From: a virus | Taxonomy: Duplodnaviria > Caudoviricetes | IMG/VR virus record: IMGVR_UViG_3300010338_000575 | Length of the DNA: 64,000 bases | Direction: 5' to 3' (one strand) | In this document: positions 8,471-26,387 of the stretch, piece by piece | Numbering within the stretch: the first letter of the stretch is position 1 | Layout of the letters: every line of letters begins with the position of its first letter | Notes under the pieces: model-generated | What the model saw: the letters and a program-made list of their open reading frames with translations, nothing else | Databases searched by the model: none | Told to the model about the DNA's origin: nothing | Made by a program: the position numbers and the translations under genes

Positions 8471-11290
8471 ATGCAAAATTTTGTGTTTGTGGTACGGTGT
8501 GAAAAAATTGGAAAGAAAGATGCTTATAGTGTTACTTTTTCATATAATGAACAATTGATAGAGCGAATAAAAAGTTTACCACAAGATACTCGAAAATGGA
8601 ATAATATTAATAAATGTTGGGAAATTACCACAAAATCATTATTTGAATTAATAAAGGGTTTTAAAGGTTCAAATAGAATATTATTTGATTTTGGTGGTGA
8701 TGCAGGTCGTGATTTATTTATACAAAACGTTAATAAAATAAAAATTAAAGAAGAAGAAAAACTTAAATTAATTTCGGAATTAAACGAAAAGAAAAAATAT
8801 TGGGTTAAATATAAGGAAGAGTTAGAGAATGAGTATGTTAAATACATTGAAAAATGTCATTCTAATTTAAAAGAAGGTGTTAAATTATATCCACATCAAA
8901 TAGTTTCATCGATGTTTATGGATATAACTCGTAATACACTTATTTCACATGAAATGGGATTGGGAAAAGCGGAAAGTCTTGATTCTAAACTACTTACGCC
9001 AAATGGTTGGATTAAAATGGGTGATGTTAAAATTAATGATTTTGTCATTGGTAGTGATGGTAAACCCAAAAAAGTGTTAGGCGTTTATCCACAAGGATTT
9101 AAAGATATGTATGAAGTTTGTTTTAGTGATGGAACATCTGTGGAATGCTGTGATGAACATCTTTGGAATGTAAATACTTATATTCGTAATTGGCGAAAAA
9201 AACCTTTCATGACAAAAACTCTTCGAGAAATAATGAATGAGGGATTACAATTTAAAAATGGTAATAATAAATGGTATATTCCAATTATTCAACCAGTTGA
9301 GTTTAAAGAAAATGATTTAAAAATTAATCCATATATTCTTGGGTGTTTATTGGGTGATGGTACAATTGATTTGAATAGTATTCAATTTACTACTGCAGAT
9401 ACTGAAATTATTGATATTTTATTAAAAAGACTAAATGAAAATATTATAATTTCAAAATTATTGGCGAAATATCAATATTCTTTAAAAAGAATTAACAATA
9501 AAATTCTTAATGTATATGTTAATGAATTAAAACAATTAAATTTATTGGGTACTAATTCATACACTAAATTTATACCTGATAGTTATAAGTTTTCATCAAT
9601 TGAGCAGAGATTAGAATTATTACAAGGTATTTTAGATACTGATGGTCATTCTCGAAAAGACGGTATTGTGGAATTAACATTGGCTTCTAAGCAATTAATT
9701 GAAGATGTGCAATTTATAGTAGAGTCTTTAGGTGGGGTAGGTAGATTACATGAAAAATGGATTAAATATAATGGTGAAAATAGATTATACTATCGTTTAA
9801 ACATTAAATTACCACCACATTTTATTCCATTTAAACTAAAAAGAAAAATTGAGACATTTGTTGCACCAACTAAATATTTACCTAATCGTGCAATTGTTGA
9901 TGTTAAATATGTGGGTAAAAAAGAAGCACAGTGTATTTTGATTGATTCAGAAGACCATTTATATGCTACTGACCATTGTATATTAACTCATAATACATTA
10001 AGTGCCATTACATTTGTTGAAATGAATGAATTTGAAAAAGTATTTGTTATAACACCCAATTCGTTAAAATTTAATTTTTATAATGAGGTTGGAAAATATA
10101 CCAATAGTTTAGCACATATTGTTGGTTGGAATAAGAATACTTGTTCAATAAAAGATGCAAAATATATTATAGTAAATTACGATTTTTTTAATCCAAGTAG
10201 TTATGAGAGATATAAACGGAAATGGGATAAATTAAATATAGATACCATTGATTGTTTAATTTGTGATGAATGTCAAAAATTGAAAAATAGTAGTACTAAT
10301 ATATATAAGAATTTTAAAAAAACGTTTAAGGGCGGGTTATTTAGAAATGGTAATGTTAGTAAAATTTTTTTATCAGGAACACCCGCACCTAATAGAGCAC
10401 ATGAATTATACACAGTATTGCATGAAATATCCCCATTAGATTTTCCAACAAAAAAACATTTTTATGAATATTATTGTGGTATGAAATACGATTTTGCTAA
10501 TGGTTGGGGGTATATTATTGATGAAATGGAACAAAGGTTTGAAGAGTTGTACCATAAAATTGCACCATATACACATAGAAAAAGAAAGATTGATGTATTA
10601 ATAGATTTACCAGATAAAATATACCAAAAAGTTATATTAGAATTAAATAATGATGAGCAGAAAATATATGATGATATTGAAGAAGGTGTTGCAAATGAAT
10701 TTACATCTAAAGAATTATATAATCCATTAACAATAATGCTTAAATTGAGACAATTTACATCATCGTTAAAGATTAAATCGATAGTTGATATTGTTGATGG
10801 TGTTTTAGAGACTGGTGAAAAAATTGTCATTGTTGATATGTTCAAAAATACACTTTATGATTTAAAAAAAATATTTGGCGAGATTGCCGTAATACATACT
10901 GGAGATCAAACGATTGAAGAACGTGCCTTATCTGTTCAAAATTTTCAAGATATAAATTCATCAGTAAAAATATTTCTCGGTTCAATACAAACGTGTAACT
11001 ATGGTTTGACATTAACGGCAGCAAATAAGTTATTTATATTAACACTACCATTTTCGGTTGGTGAATATGATCAGGTTAGCGACCGATTACATAGAATTGG
11101 TCAAAAGAGTGTTGTTAATATATACCCATTAATTTATAAAGATACTATTGATGAATATGTATATGATGTTATTGAATCAAAACGAAAGGAAATAACTAAA
11201 GTTATTGATAACGAAGATTATGAATCAAACATTAGTGAATCTGTCGTTAATGATGTTATTGAAAAGATAAAAAATAAACATAAAAAATAA
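8471..11290 (+). CDS. SNF2/HARP (SMARCAL1-like) helicase containing an intein
   Basis: N-terminal HARP-like domain (FSYNEQLIERIKSL..RKWN...CWEI), HEMGLGK/T Walker A, DECQ, SGTP, QVSDRLHRIGQ motif VI. Confidence 0.9.
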   Translation: MQNFVFVVRCEKIGKKDAYSVTFSYNEQLIERIKSLPQDTRKWNNINKCWEITTKSLFELIKGFKGSNRILFDFGGDAGRDLFIQNVNKIKIKEEEKLKLISELNEKKKYWVKYKEELENEYVKYIEKCHSNLKEGVKLYPHQIVSSMFMDITRNTLISHEMGLGKAESLDSKLLTPNGWIKMGDVKINDFVIGSDGKPKKVLGVYPQGFKDMYEVCFSDGTSVECCDEHLWNVNTYIRNWRKKPFMTKTLREIMNEGLQFKNGNNKWYIPIIQPVEFKENDLKINPYILGCLLGDGTIDLNSIQFTTADTEIIDILLKRLNENIIISKLLAKYQYSLKRINNKILNVYVNELKQLNLLGTNSYTKFIPDSYKFSSIEQRLELLQGILDTDGHSRKDGIVELTLASKQLIEDVQFIVESLGGVGRLHEKWIKYNGENRLYYRLNIKLPPHFIPFKLKRKIETFVAPTKYLPNRAIVDVKYVGKKEAQCILIDSEDHLYATDHCILTHNTLSAITFVEMNEFEKVFVITPNSLKFNFYNEVGKYTNSLAHIVGWNKNTCSIKDAKYIIVNYDFFNPSSYERYKRKWDKLNIDTIDCLICDECQKLKNSSTNIYKNFKKTFKGGLFRNGNVSKIFLSGTPAPNRAHELYTVLHEISPLDFPTKKHFYEYYCGMKYDFANGWGYIIDEMEQRFEELYHKIAPYTHRKRKIDVLIDLPDKIYQKVILELNNDEQKIYDDIEEGVANEFTSKELYNPLTIMLKLRQFTSSLKIKSIVDIVDGVLETGEKIVIVDMFKNTLYDLKKIFGEIAVIHTGDQTIEERALSVQNFQDINSSVKIFLGSIQTCNYGLTLTAANKLFILTLPFSVGEYDQVSDRLHRIGQKSVVNIYPLIYKDTIDEYVYDVIESKRKEITKVIDNEDYESNISESVVNDVIEKIKNKHKK
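8969..9994 (+). mobile_element. Class-3 (WCT) intein with LAGLIDADG homing endonuclease, 342 aa
   Basis: Inserted in Walker A GLGK|T. Starts with Ala (AESLD), ends THN before Thr+1. Block B DEHLW, block F AQC, block G THN. LGCLLGDG and LQGILDTDG motifs. Confidence 0.9.
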
Positions 11291-15349: not shown

Positions 15350-15982
15350 ATGAAAATAAAAAAGAAAGAATTATTCGAAATTATTGATGGTGATGGTGAA
15401 TTAATTGGTGCAGATAAAATACCTCAAAATGGTGTTGATTTGGATACTGCATCAAGTAGAACCACTGATTATAATGCAAATGTTGGTAATCAGCCATATC
15501 GTTATGATATGTTAGGTAGATTTGGTTTTACATTAATGCCTTTCATGGAAGGTAAGGAAGATAATATAGAACAGAAGAATTTATTTAATGATGTTGCTAA
15601 ATTTCTATATGAAAAATATGTTGAAAATTTAAAATTTTATTATAAAAATCCAAATAAACTTAAATCTGATTATAGGAAATTATATAACATAAAATATGAA
15701 TCATTACCTGATGATTTAAAAGAAATACAATATAATAACGCTAAAAATTTGATGAAAATAGTTAATGAACATTTTGAAAAGGCAATTGATTCGATGCAAA
15801 ATGTTGATGAGAGTAGTATTATTGAAGATATTATATTTGAAGATAATTTTGAGGATGAGTTATCAAAAAAAATAGAAGGCAATGATGTTTTGGATAAAAA
15901 AATAAAAAAAATTGCTGATTTAATTAATAGGTTAGATATTGAAAATAGAGAAAAATTAATTAAATTATTAGAGAGAAAATGA
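15350..15982 (+). CDS. Hypothetical protein, candidate head-internal protein
   Basis: Late motif upstream; multiple hydrophobic-x-E sites (LFE, FME, VDE, IIE, IFE). Confidence 0.6.
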   Translation: MKIKKKELFEIIDGDGELIGADKIPQNGVDLDTASSRTTDYNANVGNQPYRYDMLGRFGFTLMPFMEGKEDNIEQKNLFNDVAKFLYEKYVENLKFYYKNPNKLKSDYRKLYNIKYESLPDDLKEIQYNNAKNLMKIVNEHFEKAIDSMQNVDESSIIEDIIFEDNFEDELSKKIEGNDVLDKKIKKIADLINRLDIENREKLIKLLERK

Positions 15983-18327: not shown

Positions 18328-18990
18328 ATGAATAAATTAGATTTAAATAAATTAAAGAGTGAAATTGAAAATAAAAAACAAAAAAAGGGGGATGTGACAA
18401 CACCAAATAGTGCACCTAAATTTGTTTTCCTAAATGGTTTATTAGAATCGTTAAATACTGGTCGTGAAACCCAATCAACCGTTTTGTTAAAACATGTGGA
18501 TAATACTGTATCGAAAAAAAAGGGTGATGAAATTGTATATAAAAATATTCCAGAAGTAGCACCACCACATCTGCAACAGAATAATATTAATAGACCAATT
18601 AATAATATTGATTTGAATGATAGAGATGATAAATTTTATATGGATTTAGATAAGAAACGTCAAGAAACTCTTGCAGATTCAATTGAAAAATACGTGCAAA
18701 ATAATGTTTTTAATAATGGTGGTGCTAATTTATATAATAAACAAACATCTGACTATACAACTTCAAATGGTGTTCAATTAAGTGACAAAATGAAAGAACT
18801 GATAATTGAATTTCTTGGTGATAATTTAGTCCCAATAATTGAAGATACAATAAAAAATGTAATTATTGAAATGTATACAATTGAAAGAATAAAAAAATCA
18901 TTAAATGATAATAAAGAAATAATACAAAAAATTGTTTACGATTATTTAAAAGAAATAAAAGCCAAATCGAAACAAAACGGGGTGAAATAA
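18328..18990 (+). CDS. Hypothetical protein
   Basis: 220-aa ORF between late motif and terminator. Confidence 0.6.
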   Translation: MNKLDLNKLKSEIENKKQKKGDVTTPNSAPKFVFLNGLLESLNTGRETQSTVLLKHVDNTVSKKKGDEIVYKNIPEVAPPHLQQNNINRPINNIDLNDRDDKFYMDLDKKRQETLADSIEKYVQNNVFNNGGANLYNKQTSDYTTSNGVQLSDKMKELIIEFLGDNLVPIIEDTIKNVIIEMYTIERIKKSLNDNKEIIQKIVYDYLKEIKAKSKQNGVK

Positions 18991-19004
18991 AATCACCCCG
19001 TTTT
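18974..19004 (+). terminator. Rho-independent terminator
   Basis: AAAACGGGGTGA/TCACCCCGTTTT inverted repeat. Confidence 0.75.
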
Positions 19005-19015
19005 CACATAAATTA

Positions 19016-19023
19016 GTATTTAT
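19016..19023 (+). promoter_or_regulatory. Putative phage late promoter GTATTTAT
   Basis: Directly after the terminator, upstream of ATG 19058. Confidence 0.7.
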
Positions 19024-19057
19024 TATTAAAATAATAAAAATAAATAATATTAATTTT

Positions 19058-21586
19058 ATGTCTAATTTCGATTTTAATTCATTTTTAGATAAATTTAAAA
19101 AAATATCAACTTTTATTGGTAGAATTAATTTTGCTAATGAACATTTAGAAAAAATCGGTAGTGGTAGTGGTAGAGTTGTTTATAAAATTGATGATTATAG
19201 AGTATTTAAAATAGCAAAAAACAATAAAGGTGTTGCACAAAATGAAGTTGAAATAAGACTTAGTGATGATATATATGCTCCTGATATAATTACTAAAATA
19301 TACGAATATGCAGATGATTATAGTTGGATTATTGCTGAAAGGGCAAAGAAATTATCATTGGGTAGATTTAGAGAATTGACAAATGTTAATGATTTGTATA
19401 AATTAAAAAACTATTTAGAATGTTCAATAAACCCTAATAAATGTTATTATGGTAATGTTGACGAATTGAATAAAATATTTGATGATAATGAATTTGCACA
19501 AGAATTGTTAGATTTGGTAGTAAATTTTAGTATAAGCGTTGGTGATTTTGGTAGATTAAGTAGTTATGGCGAAGTGGTTCGAGATGGTGAATCTCTTGTT
19601 GTTATTACCGATTATGGTCTCAATGATGAGGTGTATGAAAAGCATTATAATCCACAAAGAAAGGGGAATTTAAAACTATATGAAGTATTTCCATTTTTTG
19701 ATGGTAATTACGATATATTATCAAATGTAAGTGGTGATGGTGATATAAGAAAATCAATGTGGGCATTATTACCATATGGTGTTGGTGATGGTATTAATGC
19801 TGTTAATGAAAATTTTGTTAATTTTGTTTTAAAAAACGATAAATATCCATCCAAACCAATAAAGGATATATATAAATTAGAAAATTGTTATGTTGATTGT
19901 GTATCTAATTTAAAAAATATATTAATCAATATCGCAGATATTGATGATAGAAAAAGATTCATTACTAATTTAGTTAAATTACAGGAATATTTAAATAAAC
20001 ATAGTGTATTTGGTTTTGATGAAATATTAACAGAAGATATTGATGATGATGCAATACCTAAAGTTGATAAATATAATAGTCCTTTTGTTGATTTAAATTA
20101 TTGGTATAACATTGCTAATGATTTAAGCGAAATGTTGGGTTTGGGTGGTTTAAAATATATAAAAGGTGGTGGTTTTGGACATGCATATAGAGCGGGGGAT
20201 AAGGTATTAAAATTGACAGTAGACCCATGTGAAATTGATTCTGGGATAAAAATTATGGGTGTTAATAATGCTGTAAAACATTTAGTCCATGTTTATAAAC
20301 TCTATAAAGTTTTTAATACTGAAAAGAATTTATCGTTTTTTATATTGGTTTTGGAATATATTGATACAACACGTAATTCAGAATTTAAACAATACTATGA
20401 TGTTGGTAGTGATATTTTAAAAAAGTGGGATTTATTCGATAGTGTTTTTAATTTTATATCAAAATTAAAGAATAAAAATTATACATTAGAAATGTATAAA
20501 AATGCAATTGATCATATATTAACCGACGATGCTTTAGGCTATGATTACGAAACGAGAAAAAATGCACATAAATTTTGGATGGAATTGTATCTAATAAAAA
20601 ATGAAATAAATGAATTGAATATTAAATCAACTGATTATTTAAATTGGGATAATCTTGGTTATAGGGGTGATGTATTGGTTTTTTTTGATTTAGGTGGTTG
20701 TCGCCCAGATGAAAATGTTGAGAACAAAATTCCTCTTATTAAATTACCAGAAAACGTTGAATACATTAATGAAAATTTAAATTATGATGAAATTGCAAAT
20801 AAAATAGCAAATAAATTAAATATTAAGGTATTTGATAGAATTGGTGCTGGTAATTTTGGTGTTGCATATGACATTGGTAATAATTTGGTTATGAAAATAA
20901 CAAATGATAGTAGTGAAGCGTATGAAAATTTGAAATTAATTGGTAAGCCATTAAAATATATTGCACAACCATATAAGGTATATAATGTAAATAAAAATGA
21001 CAATAGTGTTACAAAAAAATTATATGTTATTATTTTAGAAAAATTAAAAACAAGTTCAGATATTCGACAATCCTTTGAAAGATTAACATATGTTTTTAAG
21101 AATATTTTTAATATTGATTTGCCCGATGCTGTTGAACATTTTTTAGATATTTGGAAAAACGATAAGATTGATGTGAATAAAATAAATGCATATTTTAGAA
21201 AAAATCCACATGATGCAGAATTTTTCAACGGATTATTAAATATTGGAAAAGAATTGATGAAATACGATATTGTAAGTATGGATTATTTAAAATGGGAAAA
21301 TCTTGGTTATAAAAATAATAATATTGCATTTTTTGATGTTGGATTTGGTAATTATTTTAATTCACCAGATGATGCAGAAACAATTGATATTGATGAGGAT
21401 GGTAGTTCATTATATTCAACCACTAATACTATTGGTAATGATGATTATCCCGTTTATAATCAGGATAATATTCCACCAACAATTGATAATAATATTGATG
21501 TGAATACTGCAATATATTCGGAAAATAAAAAATCATTTCTTCCAAATTCAAAAATTGTTACGATTAAAAAAAAAAGTGTAAATTAG
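19058..21586 (+). CDS. N-terminal part of a giant multidomain protein: three protein-kinase-like domains
   Basis: Gly loops GSGSGRVVY, GGGFGHAY, GAGNFGVAY; Lys in FKIAK, LKLT, MKIT; DYG, DLG, DVG. Continues in the -1 frame at the A10 run 21566-21575. Confidence 0.8.
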   Translation: MSNFDFNSFLDKFKKISTFIGRINFANEHLEKIGSGSGRVVYKIDDYRVFKIAKNNKGVAQNEVEIRLSDDIYAPDIITKIYEYADDYSWIIAERAKKLSLGRFRELTNVNDLYKLKNYLECSINPNKCYYGNVDELNKIFDDNEFAQELLDLVVNFSISVGDFGRLSSYGEVVRDGESLVVITDYGLNDEVYEKHYNPQRKGNLKLYEVFPFFDGNYDILSNVSGDGDIRKSMWALLPYGVGDGINAVNENFVNFVLKNDKYPSKPIKDIYKLENCYVDCVSNLKNILINIADIDDRKRFITNLVKLQEYLNKHSVFGFDEILTEDIDDDAIPKVDKYNSPFVDLNYWYNIANDLSEMLGLGGLKYIKGGGFGHAYRAGDKVLKLTVDPCEIDSGIKIMGVNNAVKHLVHVYKLYKVFNTEKNLSFFILVLEYIDTTRNSEFKQYYDVGSDILKKWDLFDSVFNFISKLKNKNYTLEMYKNAIDHILTDDALGYDYETRKNAHKFWMELYLIKNEINELNIKSTDYLNWDNLGYRGDVLVFFDLGGCRPDENVENKIPLIKLPENVEYINENLNYDEIANKIANKLNIKVFDRIGAGNFGVAYDIGNNLVMKITNDSSEAYENLKLIGKPLKYIAQPYKVYNVNKNDNSVTKKLYVIILEKLKTSSDIRQSFERLTYVFKNIFNIDLPDAVEHFLDIWKNDKIDVNKINAYFRKNPHDAEFFNGLLNIGKELMKYDIVSMDYLKWENLGYKNNNIAFFDVGFGNYFNSPDDAETIDIDEDGSSLYSTTNTIGNDDYPVYNQDNIPPTIDNNIDVNTAIYSENKKSFLPNSKIVTIKKKSVN

Positions 21587-24500
21587 GTGGTTTAGGTAAT
21601 GTAAGTGCTGCTTGTAATCAGGGTGATATTAATAATTTATCATTTTCATTTGTTAAAGAAAGTGTTGGTGATAAGTTATTTCAAAATAAATTTCAATACA
21701 AGTCTGATTTTGATGATTTTGAGAAAAAATATAGAAAAGAATTTGCAAATGATTCAGAAAATATTGTATATTCAGAAGATAATGATTTTTTTATTATAAA
21801 AAATCCCAATAATATAAATAATTTAGATTCAGATGTTCGTGCTATTGGTGATGATGATGGTAATTTGTACGTTGAATCATATCCCAAATATACACATTCT
21901 GATATGCATAATATTTTAAGGTATAAAGGAGTATTAACAAAAAGTTATGATGAGAATTGGCATAAATCATACCCTAAAAATTATATCTATTTACAAAGAA
22001 TTGGTGATACCCAAATATTTGTATTAGCAGAATCGTATTTAATTTTAATATATGATGATGATAGATTTCCCGAAAATTATGATTTGCCTTCAAGAGAAGA
22101 AGTATTACCAGTATTTAAATTGTTTTTAGATAAATTAAAACAAAAAAATCCAAATATTGATTTTGTTAATGAATATATTAATTATTATGTGAATGAAAAT
22201 ATTAATGAAAATGATGATATGAATAATAACGGTGAAAAATACTATCGTGCCGTTGATAAATATTTAGGCAAATATGCTAAATTTAAACCAAATGGTTATT
22301 ATGAAGCAATTGATGATAACAATAATCCCATTTTCAAATATGATTCATTTTGGGAAAGTGAAATACCCGAAATTGCTGCTAGTAAACTTATCGGTGGTGC
22401 AATTATGGGTTTATATTCAATGTATTTAGAAAATAAAAAAACACCCAAAACGTTTTATATATATGAAATCAATGAAAAACCAGACATTGATATATCACAT
22501 TGGAATATGGGTGATTTTGCGTATTTGAAAGAGGTTCGATATAGGAGACCTGTTAGTGGTCGTTATGTTGGAAAATTTATATTTGATGATGACACAATAA
22601 AAAGATTTGAAGTGTTTTATGAAATAAACAATATTGATGGTTGGGGAAGTGAGTATGATATTGATGATGAAACGATTGAATTATTTAATAAAACGAATTT
22701 TGGTGAATTGTTACGTGATTTAAAAAATAAATTAAGTGAAAATAATAAAATTAATGAAAATGATTTAATTAAATTACACGAACTACCGTTTAAAGATGAG
22801 ATTAAAAAATTAGGTGGTAAAATATATAGTGTTGGTGGTGCTGTTCGTGATGAATTTCTCGGAAAAAAATCAAAAGATTTGGATTTACTAATTACTGGAA
22901 TCCCAATGAATAAATTGGAAGAAATATTATCAAAATATGGTCGTGTTGATGTTGTTGGTAAGTCTTTCGGTATTTTAAAATTTAAACCAAATGGTTTTGA
23001 AGATGATATTGATATTGCGATTCCTCGTACTGAAAGACCAACTGGTGCTGGTGGGCATAAAGGTTTTGAAGTAATATCAAATCATGAACTTCCAATTGAA
23101 AAGGATTTAGAACGTAGAGATTTTACAATTAATGCAATTGCGAAAGATATTAATGGTAATATAATTGATCCATACGGGGGTGTTGATGATTTAAAAAATA
23201 AAATAATACGTATTGTTAATCCAGATGCGTTTAGTGATGACCCATTAAGAATGCTTCGTGCAGTACAATTTGCAAGTCGTTTTGGTTTTAATATTGAACC
23301 CAAAACATTGAAAATGATTCAGAATAATGCACATAGAATCAATGAAATATCATCTGAGAGAATATTGACAGAATTTGATAAAATTATAAAAAAGGGTGAT
23401 TGTTTTACTGGTGCGTTTTTATTAAAACAAACAGGGTTATTAAAAAATATATTTGGTAAAGATGGTGGTATTTTGATTAATGATGATGTTTGGAATAATG
23501 TTAGGACGATGGGTGAATTTATTTATTTACTTTCACATAATATTGTTGATAACCCTGCTGAGTTTTATAAAAAGAAATTAAAGGGTGATATTGATACATA
23601 TAAAGAAATAAGGGCACTTCAATTAGCATTTGAATATGGTGATGTAAATAATCCAATCGAATCACGTTCAATTGCACATAATATGTATGTTATAAGTCCC
23701 AAAACATTAGATAGTATGATTTTACCTAATAGTATAAAAATTGCTGCAAATGAATTATTATCAGGTAAATATCCGAAAACTATTAATGAACTTAAAATAA
23801 ACGGAAATGATTTAATTTCAATGGGATTGAAGGATAAGGAAATTGGTAAAATGTTAAAACAACTATTATTAAAAATATATGCAGATAAGATAGTTAATGA
23901 TAAAAAAACATTACTTGATTTTGTGAAAAATAGTACACAAAAAATTAATGAGAATGGTGTATCATTATCGCATCTAAATTATAGTTTAAGATATCCTAAT
24001 AAAGACGTATTAGTGTTTGTGCCTGTTGATAAATTATTATCACGACACGAAATAGATGATCCAGATTACGCAATTACTAATAAAAATAATCAAATTGGCA
24101 ATCGTGTTGAAAGAGCAAAAGAATTTTTACAAAATTATGTTGATGATATTTGTTGGATTAATCCACAAACTGGTGTGCGTAATGATAAATATAATGTAAT
24201 TTTTGAACCATCAATTGCATATTTTTATAATAATAAATTAAAATTTAGTGATGGTAGGCATCGAATATTGGCTGCGAAAGAATTGGGTTATGATAAAGTT
24301 GCGCTTGAAATACCACAAGAACAATTAGATTTATTTGTTAACGAATTGGATGCGGAAATTGTTGATAAAAAAATAAATGAGGGAAAATGGTATGTTGATG
24401 GTAAATTGGTTGATATTAATTTTTTTATAAAAAAATTTGATGAATGGAATCAAAAAAACGGTGGTAAGTTTGAAATAACAAGAGAAGTTGTAAAAAATTT

Positions 24501-24618
24501 TTTAATATCAAATTTTAAAAAATTAAGCAACAATAAATGGTTATTTAATGAATTGGTATGGGCGTTAAATGATAGAGATTTGTTAAATGAAAATCTTTCT
24601 AAACGTGATAATAATTAA
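21568..24618 (+). CDS. cca: C-terminal part of giant protein: ART-like, CCA-adding enzyme and ParB/Srx-like domains
   Basis: Frame of ORF 21865 is open back to the A10 run (KKKCKLGGLGNVSAACNQGD...). VGGAVRD..DLD, RRDFTINAIA, DDPLRMLR (class II tRNA nucleotidyltransferase); SDGRHR (ParB). Confidence 0.8.
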   Translation, partial: KKKCKLGGLGNVSAACNQGDINNLSFSFVKESVGDKLFQNKFQYKSDFDDFEKKYRKEFANDSENIVYSEDNDFFIIKNPNNINNLDSDVRAIGDDDGNLYVESYPKYTHSDMHNILRYKGVLTKSYDENWHKSYPKNYIYLQRIGDTQIFVLAESYLILIYDDDRFPENYDLPSREEVLPVFKLFLDKLKQKNPNIDFVNEYINYYVNENINENDDMNNNGEKYYRAVDKYLGKYAKFKPNGYYEAIDDNNNPIFKYDSFWESEIPEIAASKLIGGAIMGLYSMYLENKKTPKTFYIYEINEKPDIDISHWNMGDFAYLKEVRYRRPVSGRYVGKFIFDDDTIKRFEVFYEINNIDGWGSEYDIDDETIELFNKTNFGELLRDLKNKLSENNKINENDLIKLHELPFKDEIKKLGGKIYSVGGAVRDEFLGKKSKDLDLLITGIPMNKLEEILSKYGRVDVVGKSFGILKFKPNGFEDDIDIAIPRTERPTGAGGHKGFEVISNHELPIEKDLERRDFTINAIAKDINGNIIDPYGGVDDLKNKIIRIVNPDAFSDDPLRMLRAVQFASRFGFNIEPKTLKMIQNNAHRINEISSERILTEFDKIIKKGDCFTGAFLLKQTGLLKNIFGKDGGILINDDVWNNVRTMGEFIYLLSHNIVDNPAEFYKKKLKGDIDTYKEIRALQLAFEYGDVNNPIESRSIAHNMYVISPKTLDSMILPNSIKIAANELLSGKYPKTINELKINGNDLISMGLKDKEIGKMLKQLLLKIYADKIVNDKKTLLDFVKNSTQKINENGVSLSHLNYSLRYPNKDVLVFVPVDKLLSRHEIDDPDYAITNKNNQIGNRVERAKEFLQNYVDDICWINPQTGVRNDKYNVIFEPSIAYFYNNKLKFSDGRHRILAAKELGYDKVALEIPQEQLDLFVNELDAEIVDKKINEGKWYVDGKLVDINFFIKKFDEWNQKNGGKFEITREVVKNFLISNFKKLSNNKWLFNELVWALNDRDLLNENLSKRDNN

Positions 24619-24842: not shown

Positions 24843-26387
24843 ATGAAAAAAAATATTAATGAAGCCTTTGTTGTTAGTAAAAGGTTTGATAAAAAAGGAA
24901 ATCCAATTGCGTTTATTGATCCAACCAAACCCGAAAATAATAACACATTTAAATATAAAGATATTTTAAAAGATTATGGTGCTAAATGGGATGGTGAAAA
25001 TAAATATTGGTTTTGGTATATTGGAAAAAATAAAGAACAATGGAATAATGTCTATCATAAATTTATCGAACCAGCATAAAAAAAAATACATTCAATGGAA
25101 AATGTTGGTGAGGATGATAGTAAACAATCATTGATTAAATCAATAGAAAATGTATTAGAAGAACTTAATAATACGCCAGTTGGTAGTGATGAAAATGTTA
25201 CTAATAACGATAAGTTTGATGTTAAAAATAGATTGCAAAAATTTAAAGAAATGTTAATTAATATTGATAATGATGAAGATTTTAAAAAAACAATGAGATC
25301 AATATTAGCATTTAAAAACTTATTGGGACACATATATAGTTTTCGTAATACATTGCTCATTTATATACAAAGACCAGATGCTCAAATGGTGAAAAGTGAG
25401 TTGAATTGGAATGCCGTAAATAGAGAAGTTGTTGATAAATCAAAAAGAATACTAATTATAGCACCAGCGAGAAGTGCTTTTAAAAGATACACACCTGATG
25501 AGAAAAAAAGAATTATCATTAATTTTTTAAATTCGTTGGGTAAAAAATCAGAAGATGAATTAACATTAGGTGAAAAAGAAAAATTAAGAGTATTGTTGCG
25601 TGGTAAATTGGTGAAAAATGAATTTGAATTAGCACCTGTTTATGATATTACTGATACTAAACAAATTGAAGGTAAAGAGAATTTGGTAAAAGATGTTGAT
25701 GATTTCATAAATATGAAATGGTATGTTGATGATTATAAAACGAGTGAAATAACACCATTATATAACGCTTTATTAAAATTTGCCGATGAAAATGGAATAT
25801 CTATTAGTTTTGAGGAAAAAGATTCTAAAATATTAAAAGGAGCAAGGGGTGCTAGTATTGGTGGTAAGATTTATGTTTTAAAGAACGATGGTAATGATGT
25901 TGGAATTACAAAAACACTTGCACACGAAATATTTCATGAATTGCTACATCAAAAATATTTAAGTCAAAAAAATTCAAAATATGCAGCATATTTTGTCGGT
26001 AATGAGAATGGTAGGGGATTGGTTGAACAACAAGCAGAATTATCTGCATGGATGTTATTGGCATCGTTTGGTTTTGATTTAAAAACCACATCAATAAATT
26101 ATGTTGCAATTTGGGGTGCTGATAAGGATGCAATGGTTCGTGTGTTTGATACAATTGCAAATGTTGTGAATTTTATGATAGATTATGTAAATGGTGTAAT
26201 CACAACATTTGCATCAACAAATGTGAAATTAAGTGAGGTTGAAAATATTGTAAAAAAAGGAAAACATATCACGCCAATGGATGTTGCAAAGGTGCTTGGA
26301 GTTACCGATGAGTATAAAGAAGTTCTGAGTGATTTAAGAAATAAAATTAATGAACATTTTTATAGATTTGTAAAAAGAAAATTATAA
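24843..26387 (+). pseudogene. DUF5710-like + ArdC-like ssDNA-binding + zincin metallopeptidase protein, interrupted by in-frame TAA at 25077
   Basis: ORFs 24843 and 25095 are in the same frame with one stop between them (PA*KKIHSMEN). KDILKDYGAKWDGENKYW, YSFRNTLLIYIQRP, HEIFHELLH, EQQAE. Confidence 0.65.

What the first reader, a model, noticed from the sequence alone, without database searches (positions are those of the whole stretch)
19058..24618. ~1850-aa multi-enzyme polyprotein: 3 kinases, ART-like, CCA-adding enzyme, ParB-like
Seen: joining the two ORFs at the A10 run gives kinase 1 (~19140-19650), kinase 2 (~20140-20720), kinase 3 (~20830-21360), a CKLGGLGNVSAACNQGD motif, an unknown domain, an ART-like domain (~22230-22600), a tRNA nucleotidyltransferase (~22770-23930), a ParB/Srx domain (~23980-24360) and a tail. 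Nearly every junction has a hydrophobic-x-E site: LYE, VNE, LTE, LPE/INE, IDE, VKE, VNE-NINE, LSE-NNKINE, KINE, KINE, LLNE. The gene follows a late motif. Inference: a viral-style polyprotein that is packaged whole and cut into separate enzymes that phosphorylate or ADP-ribosylate host targets and repair tRNA ends. It resembles 'polyvalent proteins' but with explicit processing sites; I do not recognise this architecture as described.
Basis: partly seen in the sequence, partly recalled or inferred. Interest (0 to 1): 0.88.

Follow-up and report, generated by a model that had tools for sequence, protein, structure and literature searches.

The report
Frameshift-split effector polyprotein of huge phage
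A large T4-like phage encodes one ~1,850-residue chain of enzymes (three kinase-like domains, a tRNA CCA-adding enzyme and others), broken by a one-base shift in a run of ten A's; its module borders carry the cutting motif of the phage head protease, so it is probably a packaged toolbox protein that is cut into separate enzymes.

Summary
ORF1 (19058-21586) and the frame open from 21568 to 24618 are halves of one ancestral gene. In 125 of 147 homologues from huge-phage contigs the chain runs unbroken through the same K-K-K / CKLGG..ACNQGD site.

The A10 run is real and is seen in several independent assemblies. One near-identical strain has A9, and neither length is in frame (A8 or A11 would be). 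A 42%-identical relative has an independent -1 break at the same run.

- **Three kinases:** confirmed as protein-kinase-like folds.
- **CCA-adding enzyme:** solid.
- **ParB-like:** motif-level support only.
- **ART-like:** weak support.

Hydrophobic-x-Glu is not enriched in the protein overall. It does sit at essentially every module border and is conserved there across more than 100 homologues (65-100% of flanks against 31% of random windows; x-Asp is not enriched).

Complete relatives are T4-like, with a gp23 capsid protein and a gp21-type protease. Their capsid propeptide border reads M-I-N-E. The family N-terminus (MTYxEF..LPE) resembles the T4 capsid-targeting sequence MKTYQEFIAE.

Best reading (about 0.5): a capsid-targeted polyvalent polyprotein cut by the prohead protease, with the full length made by slippage at the A run. 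Cleavage, packaging and slippage have not been shown. It is a new variant of known kinds.

The parts
18976..19023 (+). Terminator-like hairpin of the upstream gene, then the promoter-like motif GTATTTAT (19016-19023), 42 nt before the ATG
   Evidence: Read. The same layout with GTATTTAT occurs in 24 of 26 distinct relatives. The motif occurs 27 times in the window against 15.3 +/- 3.8 expected, mostly just upstream of + strand genes, including structural ones.
19058..19657 (+). Kinase-like domain 1 (aa 1-200), including an N-terminal helix that in relatives reads MTYxEF..LPE (here MSNFDFNSFLDKF)
   Evidence: AF2 model pLDDT 80-92. All Foldseek PDB hits are PK-like folds. Invariant G34/G36/G38, K51, E65, D163 and D185-Y-G187. 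SteC kinase Gly-loop match at E 0.01. N-termini listed.
19658..20089 (+). Conserved low-confidence stretch (aa 201-250, with LYE209 and VNE251) and a helical domain (aa 251-330), then a linker
   Evidence: pLDDT below 50 over aa 201-243. Y208 and E209 are invariant and E251 is at least 90% conserved.
20090..20752 (+). Kinase-like domain 2 (aa 345-565), ending LPE565
   Evidence: G370, G374, K385, D526, N532, D544, G546, P564 and E565 are at least 90% conserved.
20753..20779 (+). Disordered linker with INE572
   Evidence: pLDDT below 50 over aa 566-572. Site coordinates.
20780..21397 (+). Kinase-like domain 3 (aa 575-780), ending IDE780
   Evidence: pLDDT 77-98. The K3 C-flank has Phi-x-E in 91% of 119 distinct homologue flanks.
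21398..21660 (+). Disordered junction segment: the ORF1 tail, the K-run and the conserved CKLGGLGNVSAACNQGDINN motif, ending VKE31 of ORF2
   Evidence: pLDDT about 30 in both models. The motif is 60-90% identical across relatives that are otherwise about 40% identical. The flank after the motif has Phi-x-E in 99% of 137 flanks. One copy per complete relative genome.
21566..21575 (+). A10 run where the frame shifts by -1. The ORF1 stop TAG is at 21584-21586; the ORF2 frame opens at 21568
   Evidence: A9 in the near-identical L103, A10 in L001. An independent -1 break at an A9 run occurs at the same site in L002.
21661..22209 (+). Module of unknown fold (ORF2 aa 32-205) plus a disordered linker with VNE202, VNE210 and INE214
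   Evidence: pLDDT 80-96 for aa 55-200, below 50 for aa 205-221. The module is mobile and tandemly repeated in relatives. No Pfam, PDB or Atlas match.
22210..22758 (+). ART-like module (aa 215-391) and a linker with LSE391 and INE397
   Evidence: 50-60% identical in 7 relatives, with invariant R (YYR), S (AASKS) and E (KEVRY). VIA-align gives Z 3.1-4.1 to about nine or ten ART-fold proteins. Foldseek finds nothing. No match to the ART-PolyVal region by hhalign.
22759..23952 (+). Class II tRNA nucleotidyltransferase (CCA-adding type) module (aa 398-795), ending KINE795
   Evidence: PF01743 at 1.6e-23, PF12627 at 1.6e-14, PF13735 weak. PHROG 2244 at 5e-67. Fused or a separate gene in relatives. 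Flanks have Phi-x-E in 92% and 95%.
23953..24381 (+). ParB/Srx-like module (aa 796-938), ending KINE938
   Evidence: 97 representative relatives, either stand-alone or inside giant proteins. Invariant D-G-R-H-R..A....G. Weak profile match to the ParB/Srx-fold protein SbnI at E 0.05. No Pfam hit.
24382..24618 (+). Conserved C-terminal module (aa 939-1016; W..DG..V.I.FF..F/YDEWN) with LNE1008, then the stop
   Evidence: 36-45% identical in 27 relatives, usually right after the CCA module or as a separate small gene.

Best explanation
**What it is.** One gene for a polyvalent effector polyprotein of a T4-like huge phage.

**Shown:**
- The two ORFs are halves of one ancestral gene.
- The gene encodes three protein-kinase-like domains, a very conserved disordered junction peptide, and a variable train of modules. 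Here the train is an unknown fold, an ART-like module, a CCA-adding enzyme, a ParB-like module and a small C-terminal module.
- Every module border carries a conserved hydrophobic-x-Glu tripeptide.

**Inferred:**
- The precursor is made late and taken into the prohead through its N-terminal T4-CTS-like helix and/or the junction peptide.
- The gp21-type prohead protease cuts it after the border Glu residues into separate enzymes, which are injected with the DNA.
- Once injected they act on host targets at once: phosphorylation, repair of tRNA 3' ends, and in relatives also 2H/Acb1-like, GNAT, NleE-like and ART activities.
- In this lineage the A10 run puts the cargo half out of frame. A fraction of transcripts or ribosomes slips by one base (A11 mRNA, or a -1 shift on A-AAA-AAA). 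The result is mostly a kinase-only product and a minority of full-length chain.
For: **One gene.**
- Homologues are continuous across the site.
- The sequence downstream of the shift still matches the family consensus and stays open for 1013 codons in a 25% GC genome.

**Cutting sites.**
- Phi-x-E lies in 14-aa flanks of eight border types in 65-100% of distinct homologue flanks, against 31% of random windows.
- Phi-x-D and Phi-x-K are not enriched. The logo is P3 M/L/I/V, P1 E.
- Stand-alone CCA genes begin, and terminal CCA modules end, at these sites.
- In the window protein the candidate sites fall in segments with pLDDT below 50.

**Protease.**
- 4 of 4 complete relatives have Peptidase_S77 next to a gp23-type capsid gene.
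- Their capsid propeptide border aligns with T4 L-T-E|A and reads M-I-N-E|S.
- T4 gp21 cuts after L/I-x-E (PMC9026906).

**Targeting.**
- 87 of 111 distinct family N-termini start M[TSK][YF]x[ED][FY], and 94 have a Phi-x-E within 18 residues.
- T4 IPIII begins MKTYQEFIAE|A.

**Timing.** The GTATTTAT motif is shared with structural genes.

**Polyvalent repertoire in relatives.** ART-PolyVal, ParBc, GNAT, 2H/Acb1 and NleE domains.

**Frameshift kept.** A10, A10 and A9 in three strains 99.94-99.96% identical, none in frame, plus an independent -1 break in L002.
Against: - There is no protein-level evidence of packaging or cleavage, and no cultured phage carries the gene.
- The gene sits among replication and nucleotide-metabolism genes, not head genes.
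- The window's own N-terminus is degenerate (MSNFDF..LDK) and lacks the L-x-E. AF2 packs that helix on kinase 1.
- The MTYxEF start is not shared by other genes of the relatives, unlike the T4 CTS.
- Homologous flanks are not independent samples, so the binomial p-values overstate significance. The Glu could be part of conserved module ends.
- The window genome's own protease was not seen.
- Only 2-3 of about 130 lineages are frameshifted, so recoding is not a family trait.
- No stimulatory RNA structure follows the run (z +0.6).
Confidence: 0.5

Rival explanations
1. An unprocessed cytoplasmic multi-enzyme. The fusion only co-expresses RNA-repair and host-takeover activities. The Phi-x-E tripeptides are conserved ends of modules or linkers and are not cut.
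For: The gene lies with PolB, NUDIX, GNAT and PNK-like genes. CCA-adding, 2H and kinase-type activities are typical of cytoplasmic tRNA-repair sets in jumbo phages (PMC7824862). No peptidase domain is found in any of about 147 family members.
Against: The same tripeptide recurs at about twelve non-homologous borders. It is specific for Glu over Asp. It coincides with gene starts and ends in split forms. It matches the capsid propeptide border of the same phage clade.
Confidence: 0.2
2. A true gene fission or recent decay. In this lineage ORF1 (kinases only) is the product. ORF2 is either started on its own further downstream or is a young pseudogene, and slippage plays no role.
For: Neither A9 nor A10 is in frame, in four sampled genomes. 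Short natural forms with only the kinases plus the motif exist (P0009, P0023). Relatives split the train into separate genes. The same window carries a nonsense SNP in the next large gene. No frameshift-stimulating structure was found.
Against: In the ORF2 frame the first start codons (TTG 21865, ATG 21904) lie about 100 codons in, inside the unknown-fold module, so the conserved motif would be lost. The whole 1013-codon frame is intact and consensus-like. A second lineage has the same -1 state at the same run. A runs of 9-10 are known slippage sites for RNA polymerase and for tRNA-Lys (general knowledge; the dnaX and Buchnera cases).
Confidence: 0.2
3. The chain is processed, but by another protease. 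Candidates are the ArdC-like metallopeptidase encoded just downstream (24843-26387) or a host Glu-specific enzyme. Processing would happen after injection or in the cytoplasm rather than in the prohead.
For: Iyer et al. 2017 propose metallopeptidase processing for polyvalent proteins. The neighbouring gene matches metalloprotease and anti-restriction PHROGs, and ArdC-N faintly in L002.
Against: The site type is that of gp21-family proteases and of the clade's own capsid border. The neighbouring gene is broken by a stop in this window.
Confidence: 0.1

Closest known systems
Polyvalent proteins of phages and conjugative elements (Iyer, Burroughs, Anand, de Souza, Aravind 2017; PMC5512222)
   Same: A giant chain of many unrelated effector domains with rapid domain shuffling. 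The repertoire is shared: truncated protein kinases, ART, GNAT, ParB, 2H, Pol-beta NTase. Solo copies of the modules are encoded nearby. Delivery with the DNA is proposed.
   Different: No metallopeptidase domain is present in any member seen. Borders carry Phi-x-E instead. The core is 1-3 tandem PK-like domains plus a unique CKLGG..ACNQGD peptide. A CCA-adding enzyme is the commonest cargo. The hosts are T4-like huge phages.
T4 internal proteins IPI-III and Alt: CTS-targeted, gp21-processed head cargo
   Same: The N-terminus resembles MKTYQEFIAE, and cutting would follow L/I-x-E. The cargo would be anti-defence or host-modifying enzymes injected with the DNA. The phage backbone is T4-like, with gp23 and gp21 homologues.
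   Different: T4 cargo proteins are separate small genes, each with its own CTS and usually one or two cuts. Here one precursor would carry 8-15 cargoes and a dozen sites, and the CTS-like start is unique to this gene in each genome.
Ejection and inner-body proteins of phiKZ, 201phi2-1 and SPN3US, cut at S/A-x-E by a gp21 homologue
   Same: Large head-internal proteins are cut many times after Glu, with redundant sites in the linkers.
   Different: Those are mostly non-enzymatic paralogues or vRNAP subunits. The P3 preference differs (S/A/G there, M/L/I/V here).
Slippage-decoded genes at A runs (dnaX A-AAA-AAG; transcriptional realignment at A9-A11)
   Same: A -1 shift is needed on a lysine-coding A run, with a stop a few codons after the run, giving a short and a long product.
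   Different: There is no stimulatory structure. The state is seen in only 2-3 lineages of the family, and the run length varies (A9/A10) without ever being in frame.

Membership tests
Polyvalent proteins (Iyer et al. 2017) | Many unrelated enzymatic or binding domains in one polypeptide, encoded by a phage or conjugative element | tested here: met
   At least 8 modules here and up to 3198 aa in relatives, on huge-phage contigs.
Polyvalent proteins (Iyer et al. 2017) | Characteristic domain repertoire (ART-PolyVal, ParB, GNAT, 2H, kinase) with mosaic shuffling | tested here: met
   PF18760, PF02195, PF13508/PF00583, PF13563/PF23474 and PF20798 occur in homologues. Modules are moved, duplicated or split.
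Polyvalent proteins (Iyer et al. 2017) | Built-in metallopeptidase (MPTase) for self-processing (frequent, not universal) | tested here: not met
   No peptidase family appears among the precomputed or scanned Pfam hits of about 147 members. An ArdC-like MPTase is a separate neighbouring gene.
Polyvalent proteins (Iyer et al. 2017) | Packaged in the virion and delivered with the DNA | not testable with these tools
   Needs virion proteomics.
T4-type CTS cargo processed by the gp21 prohead protease | The phage encodes a gp21 (Peptidase_S77) protease and a gp23-type capsid | tested here: inconclusive
   Present in 4 of 4 complete relatives. The window itself shows only T4-like baseplate, Mre11/Rad50 and PolB genes. 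This genome's head genes were not readable.
T4-type CTS cargo processed by the gp21 prohead protease | L/I-x-E sites at accessible positions bordering the mature parts | tested here: met
   Conserved Phi-x-E at all borders, in low-pLDDT segments. The clade's capsid border is M-I-N-E.
T4-type CTS cargo processed by the gp21 prohead protease | N-terminal capsid-targeting sequence like MKTYQEFIAE | tested here: inconclusive
   The family consensus MTYxEFKQNFLPE keeps the Y..F spacing and has an L-x-E. The window copy is degenerate, and function is untested.
T4-type CTS cargo processed by the gp21 prohead protease | Actual cleavage and presence in heads | not testable with these tools
   No cultured member.
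Class II tRNA nucleotidyltransferase (CCA-adding / poly(A) polymerase family) | PolyA_pol head domain with GG.VRD...D.D, plus the RNA-binding neck | tested here: met
   PF01743 at 83.9 bits and PF12627 at 53.9 bits, both over cut-off. GGAVRD..DLD, RRD and DDPLR are read. CCA versus A-adding specificity was not tested.
Protein-kinase-like (PKL) fold | Bilobal fold with Gly-rich loop, Lys, Glu, catalytic Asp and a DxG metal site | tested here: met
   All top Foldseek hits are kinases or APH enzymes (probability about 1, E 6e-4 to 6e-3). The conserved residues are listed. No Pfam kinase model matches. Substrate unknown.
ADP-ribosyltransferase superfamily | ART fold with an R-S-E or H-Y-E triad | tested here: inconclusive
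   Invariant R, S and E candidates. About nine or ten ART-fold proteins at Z 3.1-4.1. No Foldseek or Pfam match. No match to the ART-PolyVal region by hhalign.
ParB/Srx superfamily | ParB N-terminal fold with the D/G-G-x-H/R-R..A motif | tested here: inconclusive
   Invariant DGRHR..A....G. SbnI match at E 0.05. A language-model lead to ParB_N. No Pfam hit in 20 members. Not folded.
Programmed -1 frameshift / transcriptional slippage | Slippery run, a conserved out-of-frame state, and a product made from both frames | tested here: inconclusive
   An A-AAA-AAA run is present, and the out-of-frame state holds in 4 genomes and in one distant lineage. No stimulator was found. Most of the family is in frame. 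The product was not observed.

The most novel reading that the evidence does not exclude
T4-like huge phages use a true polyprotein strategy. A single capsid-targeted precursor of 1,500-3,200 residues carries up to about fifteen counter-defence and host-takeover enzymes. The prohead protease cuts it at M/L/I/V-x-E linkers inside the head, so one targeting signal loads a whole, freely reshuffled toolbox that is injected with the DNA. In this lineage a poly-A slippage site sets the ratio of kinase-only to full cargo.
Probability: 0.4. Interest if true: 0.85.

Novelty: new variant of a known kind. Interest (0 to 1): 0.75.

Why it matters
If true, this joins two known ideas, polyvalent proteins and T4 head cargo cut by gp21, into one mechanism with sites that can be read from sequence.

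- It would explain how huge phages load many enzymes with a single targeting signal.
- It would give a rule (Phi-x-E borders) for parsing hundreds of unannotated giant phage proteins into units.
- It would name injected tandem kinases, a tRNA CCA-repair enzyme and Acb1-like modules as first-minute counter-defence.
- The borders would also be ready-made sites for loading foreign cargo into large capsids.

Tried and rejected
- **Overall enrichment of Phi-x-E:** none in the protein (shuffles p 0.30 and 0.04; same density as other window ORFs). Only the placement is special.
- **T4 late promoter TATAAATA:** at chance level.
- **Pfam at E up to 10:** nothing credible on the kinase, unknown, ART-like and ParB-like pieces.
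- **PDB by sequence for the ParB-like part:** nothing.
- **aa 1-400 model:** Foldseek PDB and the ESM Atlas shape search gave no match. The Atlas feature search of the unknown module gave no usable hit.
- **hhalign of the ART-like profile against a homologue with ART-PolyVal:** no relation.
- **RNA folding downstream of the A run:** z +0.6 in the window, so no stimulator.
- **Laid contigs of RNA-labelled runs:** only short pieces. Two stop at about 21589-21600, just after the run, which cannot be interpreted.
- **A shared CTS on other genes:** the MTYxEF start occurs once per relative genome.
- **Cultured carriers:** only stand-alone kinase-1-like ORFs in XacN1, Xoo-sp13 and two Alishewanella phages.
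- **Whole genome of the window:** not held.
- **Sequencing error as the cause of the split:** rejected.


Full report
**Anatomy.** The window is 25% GC with almost all long ORFs on the + strand. It carries T4-type genes:
- family B DNA polymerase
- gp6-like baseplate wedge
- Mre11/Rad50-like pair
- primase
- an SNF2 helicase with an intein

ORF1 runs 19058-21586 (842 aa) and ends IKKKSVN*. A second frame is open from 21568 to 24618 and begins KKKCKLGGLGNVSAACNQGD. The two overlap on an exact A10 run at 21566-21575. Joining them needs a -1 shift, which means A11 or A8.

**Are the halves one gene?** Yes. Two searches returned about 147 relatives of ORF1, 491-3198 aa long, on contigs of up to 366 kb.
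- In them the end of the ORF1 homology (about residue 839) runs directly into the homology to ORF2 residues 1-33.
- Of 39 loci that carry the motif V.VKKKC[RK]LGG.GNTS.ACNQGDINN, 36 are in frame.
- 125 of the 147 proteins hold the motif inside one ORF.

**Is the A10 an error?** No.
- The identical ORF1 is called on 9 contigs.
- The junction is held whole by 8 runs from 7 studies between 2016 and 2024.
- A contig from another run spans 19000-22620 without gaps.
- L001 differs by 5 SNPs and has A10. L103, from an NCBI metagenome-assembled genome, differs by 3 SNPs and has A9.
- Neither length is in frame.
- The window has 40 other A or T runs of 8-10 bases, and none breaks a gene.
- A relative only 42% identical (L002, syntenic) needs the same -1 shift on an A9 run at the same place.
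- No RNA structure stands out downstream.

The split is therefore real, persistent and recurrent at a slippery lysine run, but it is not a trait of the whole family. How, or whether, it is decoded is inferred and not shown.

**Domains.**
- *ORF1.* The AF2 model (mean pLDDT 78.6) gives three compact domains at aa 1-200, 345-565 and 575-778. There is a conserved but low-confidence stretch at 201-250, a helical domain at 251-330, a short linker at 566-572 and a disordered tail at 781-842.
- *Kinase fold.* Every top Foldseek match is a protein-kinase-like fold: JAK tandem kinases, APH(2''), Hanks kinases. Gly-loop, Lys, Glu, catalytic Asp and DxG residues are conserved. A profile finds the SteC kinase Gly-loop at E 0.01. 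No Pfam kinase model matches.
- *CCA module.* In ORF2 it is firm (PF01743, PF12627).
- *ORF2 aa 1-400.* The model shows the junction peptide disordered, a well-folded unknown module at 55-200, a disordered linker at 205-221, and the ART-like module at 223-390 with mixed confidence.
- *ART-like module.* Foldseek and the Atlas find nothing. VIA-align lists about nine or ten ART-fold proteins for the module, but only at Z 3.1-4.1. R, S and E candidates are invariant. hhalign shows no relation to the ART-PolyVal region.
- *ParB-like module.* It has 97 representative relatives, stand-alone or inside giant proteins. It has an invariant DGRHR..A....G and a weak SbnI (ParB/Srx) match, but no Pfam hit.
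- *Other cargo in relatives.* 2H/Acb1-like, GNAT, NleE-like, ART-PolyVal and ParBc domains.

**The Glu sites.** Counted over the whole protein, [LIVMF]-x-E is ordinary: 2.0 and 2.8 per 100 aa against 2.0 in other window ORFs, and within shuffles. Placement is not ordinary.
- *Before the CCA module,* nearly all fused homologues read ..[MLI]-N-E|A.IMSLQDLP. Stand-alone CCA genes start with Met right there.
- *After the CCA module,* fused forms continue KEELLSL + 6-10 residues + [ILV]-x-E. Terminal forms stop just after KEELLSL.
- *Other borders* show the same pattern: the unknown module, the ART-like module, the junction motif and kinase 3.
- *Counts.* In 14-residue flanks, Phi-x-E is present in 92, 95, 65, 71, 94, 100, 99 and 91% of distinct flanks, against 31% of random windows from the same proteins.
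- *Specificity.* Phi-x-D and Phi-x-K are not enriched. The logo is P3 M/L/I/V, P2 N/D/K, P1 E.
- *Accessibility.* In the window protein the sites lie in segments with pLDDT below 50, or at their edges.
- *Caveat.* Homologous flanks are not independent samples. The fairer count is about twelve different border types that all carry the tripeptide.

**Which protease?**
- Four of four complete relatives (299-363 kb) encode Peptidase_S77 (T4 gp21 family) beside a gp23-type capsid gene.
- Aligned with T4 gp23, whose L-T-E|A site is read, their propeptide border reads H-M-I-N-E|S at residue 60. This is the same I-N-E that recurs in this polyprotein.
- gp21 cuts after L/I-x-E, and phiKZ-type enzymes after S/A-x-E (PMC9026906).
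- An earlier unchecked note says this genome's own capsid has MINE near residue 60.

**Targeting and timing.**
- 87 of 111 distinct family N-termini start M[TSK][YF]x[ED][FY], typically MTYDEFKQNFLPEFLN, and 94 have a Phi-x-E within 18 residues.
- T4 IPIII starts MKTYQEFIAE|A. In that sequence residues 4 and 7 direct targeting and residues 8 and 10 direct processing.
- The window copy is degenerate (MSNFDFNSFLDKF).
- This start occurs once per relative genome, as does the junction motif.
- Upstream, a terminator hairpin and the motif GTATTTAT are conserved in 24 of 26 relatives. The motif is over-represented in the window and precedes structural genes too.

**Comparison with what is known.** The family fits the polyvalent proteins of Iyer et al. 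2017, including their truncated kinases. It lacks their metallopeptidase. I found no mention of prohead-protease sites, of a CCA-adding enzyme as cargo, or of this architecture. No cultured phage carries it.

**Verdict.** My estimates:
- about 0.5 that this is a capsid-targeted precursor cut by the prohead protease, with the full length made by slippage
- about 0.2 for an uncut cytoplasmic multi-enzyme
- about 0.2 for a plain gene fission or decay in this lineage
- about 0.1 for cutting by another protease

Noticed in passing
window 24843-26387 (SNP at 25078): The window has A at 25078 where two near-identical strains (L001, L103) have T. This creates a TAA that splits a 514-aa ArdC-like / metalloprotease gene into 78-aa and 430-aa ORFs.
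   Followed up: partly
window 8471-11290: The SNF2-type helicase carries an intein: LAGLIDADG_3 and Hint matches lie inside the ATPase domain.
   Followed up: no
window, 27 sites such as 1130, 15326, 18287, 19016, 27373, 31604, 36472, 41854, 55914: GTATTTAT lies 22-44 nt upstream of many + strand genes (27 sites against 15.3 +/- 3.8 expected). It is a candidate promoter element shared by structural genes and the effector cluster.
   Followed up: partly
L002 8618-10872: In this syntenic relative the CCA-enzyme region is further broken: a LAGLIDADG ORF lies upstream and two overlapping PolyA_pol ORFs of 110 and 405 aa follow. This could be an intron, an intein or decay.
   Followed up: no
L036 8632-10251; L038 9634-10782: The unknown-fold module (EGVGDKYAEK..IIKNPKSL..GNLY..GESN) is repeated two or three times in tandem in some relatives, with each copy preceded by a Glu.
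   Followed up: partly
L084-L089 (relatives G002-G004): The Peptidase_S77 matches lie as two separate stretches inside ORFs of 646-653 aa, much longer than T4 gp21. The protease may be fused to, or have inserted in it, another part.
   Followed up: no
P0069 C-terminus: Another family member loses the frame a few codons later, right after CRLGG. This suggests the whole K-run / GG region is prone to frame loss.
   Followed up: no
window 15350-15982 and 24843-25079: Neighbouring small ORFs start MKIKKKELFE|I and MKKNINE|A, that is, with a very early Phi-x-E, reminiscent of short cleavable N-terminal tags.
   Followed up: no
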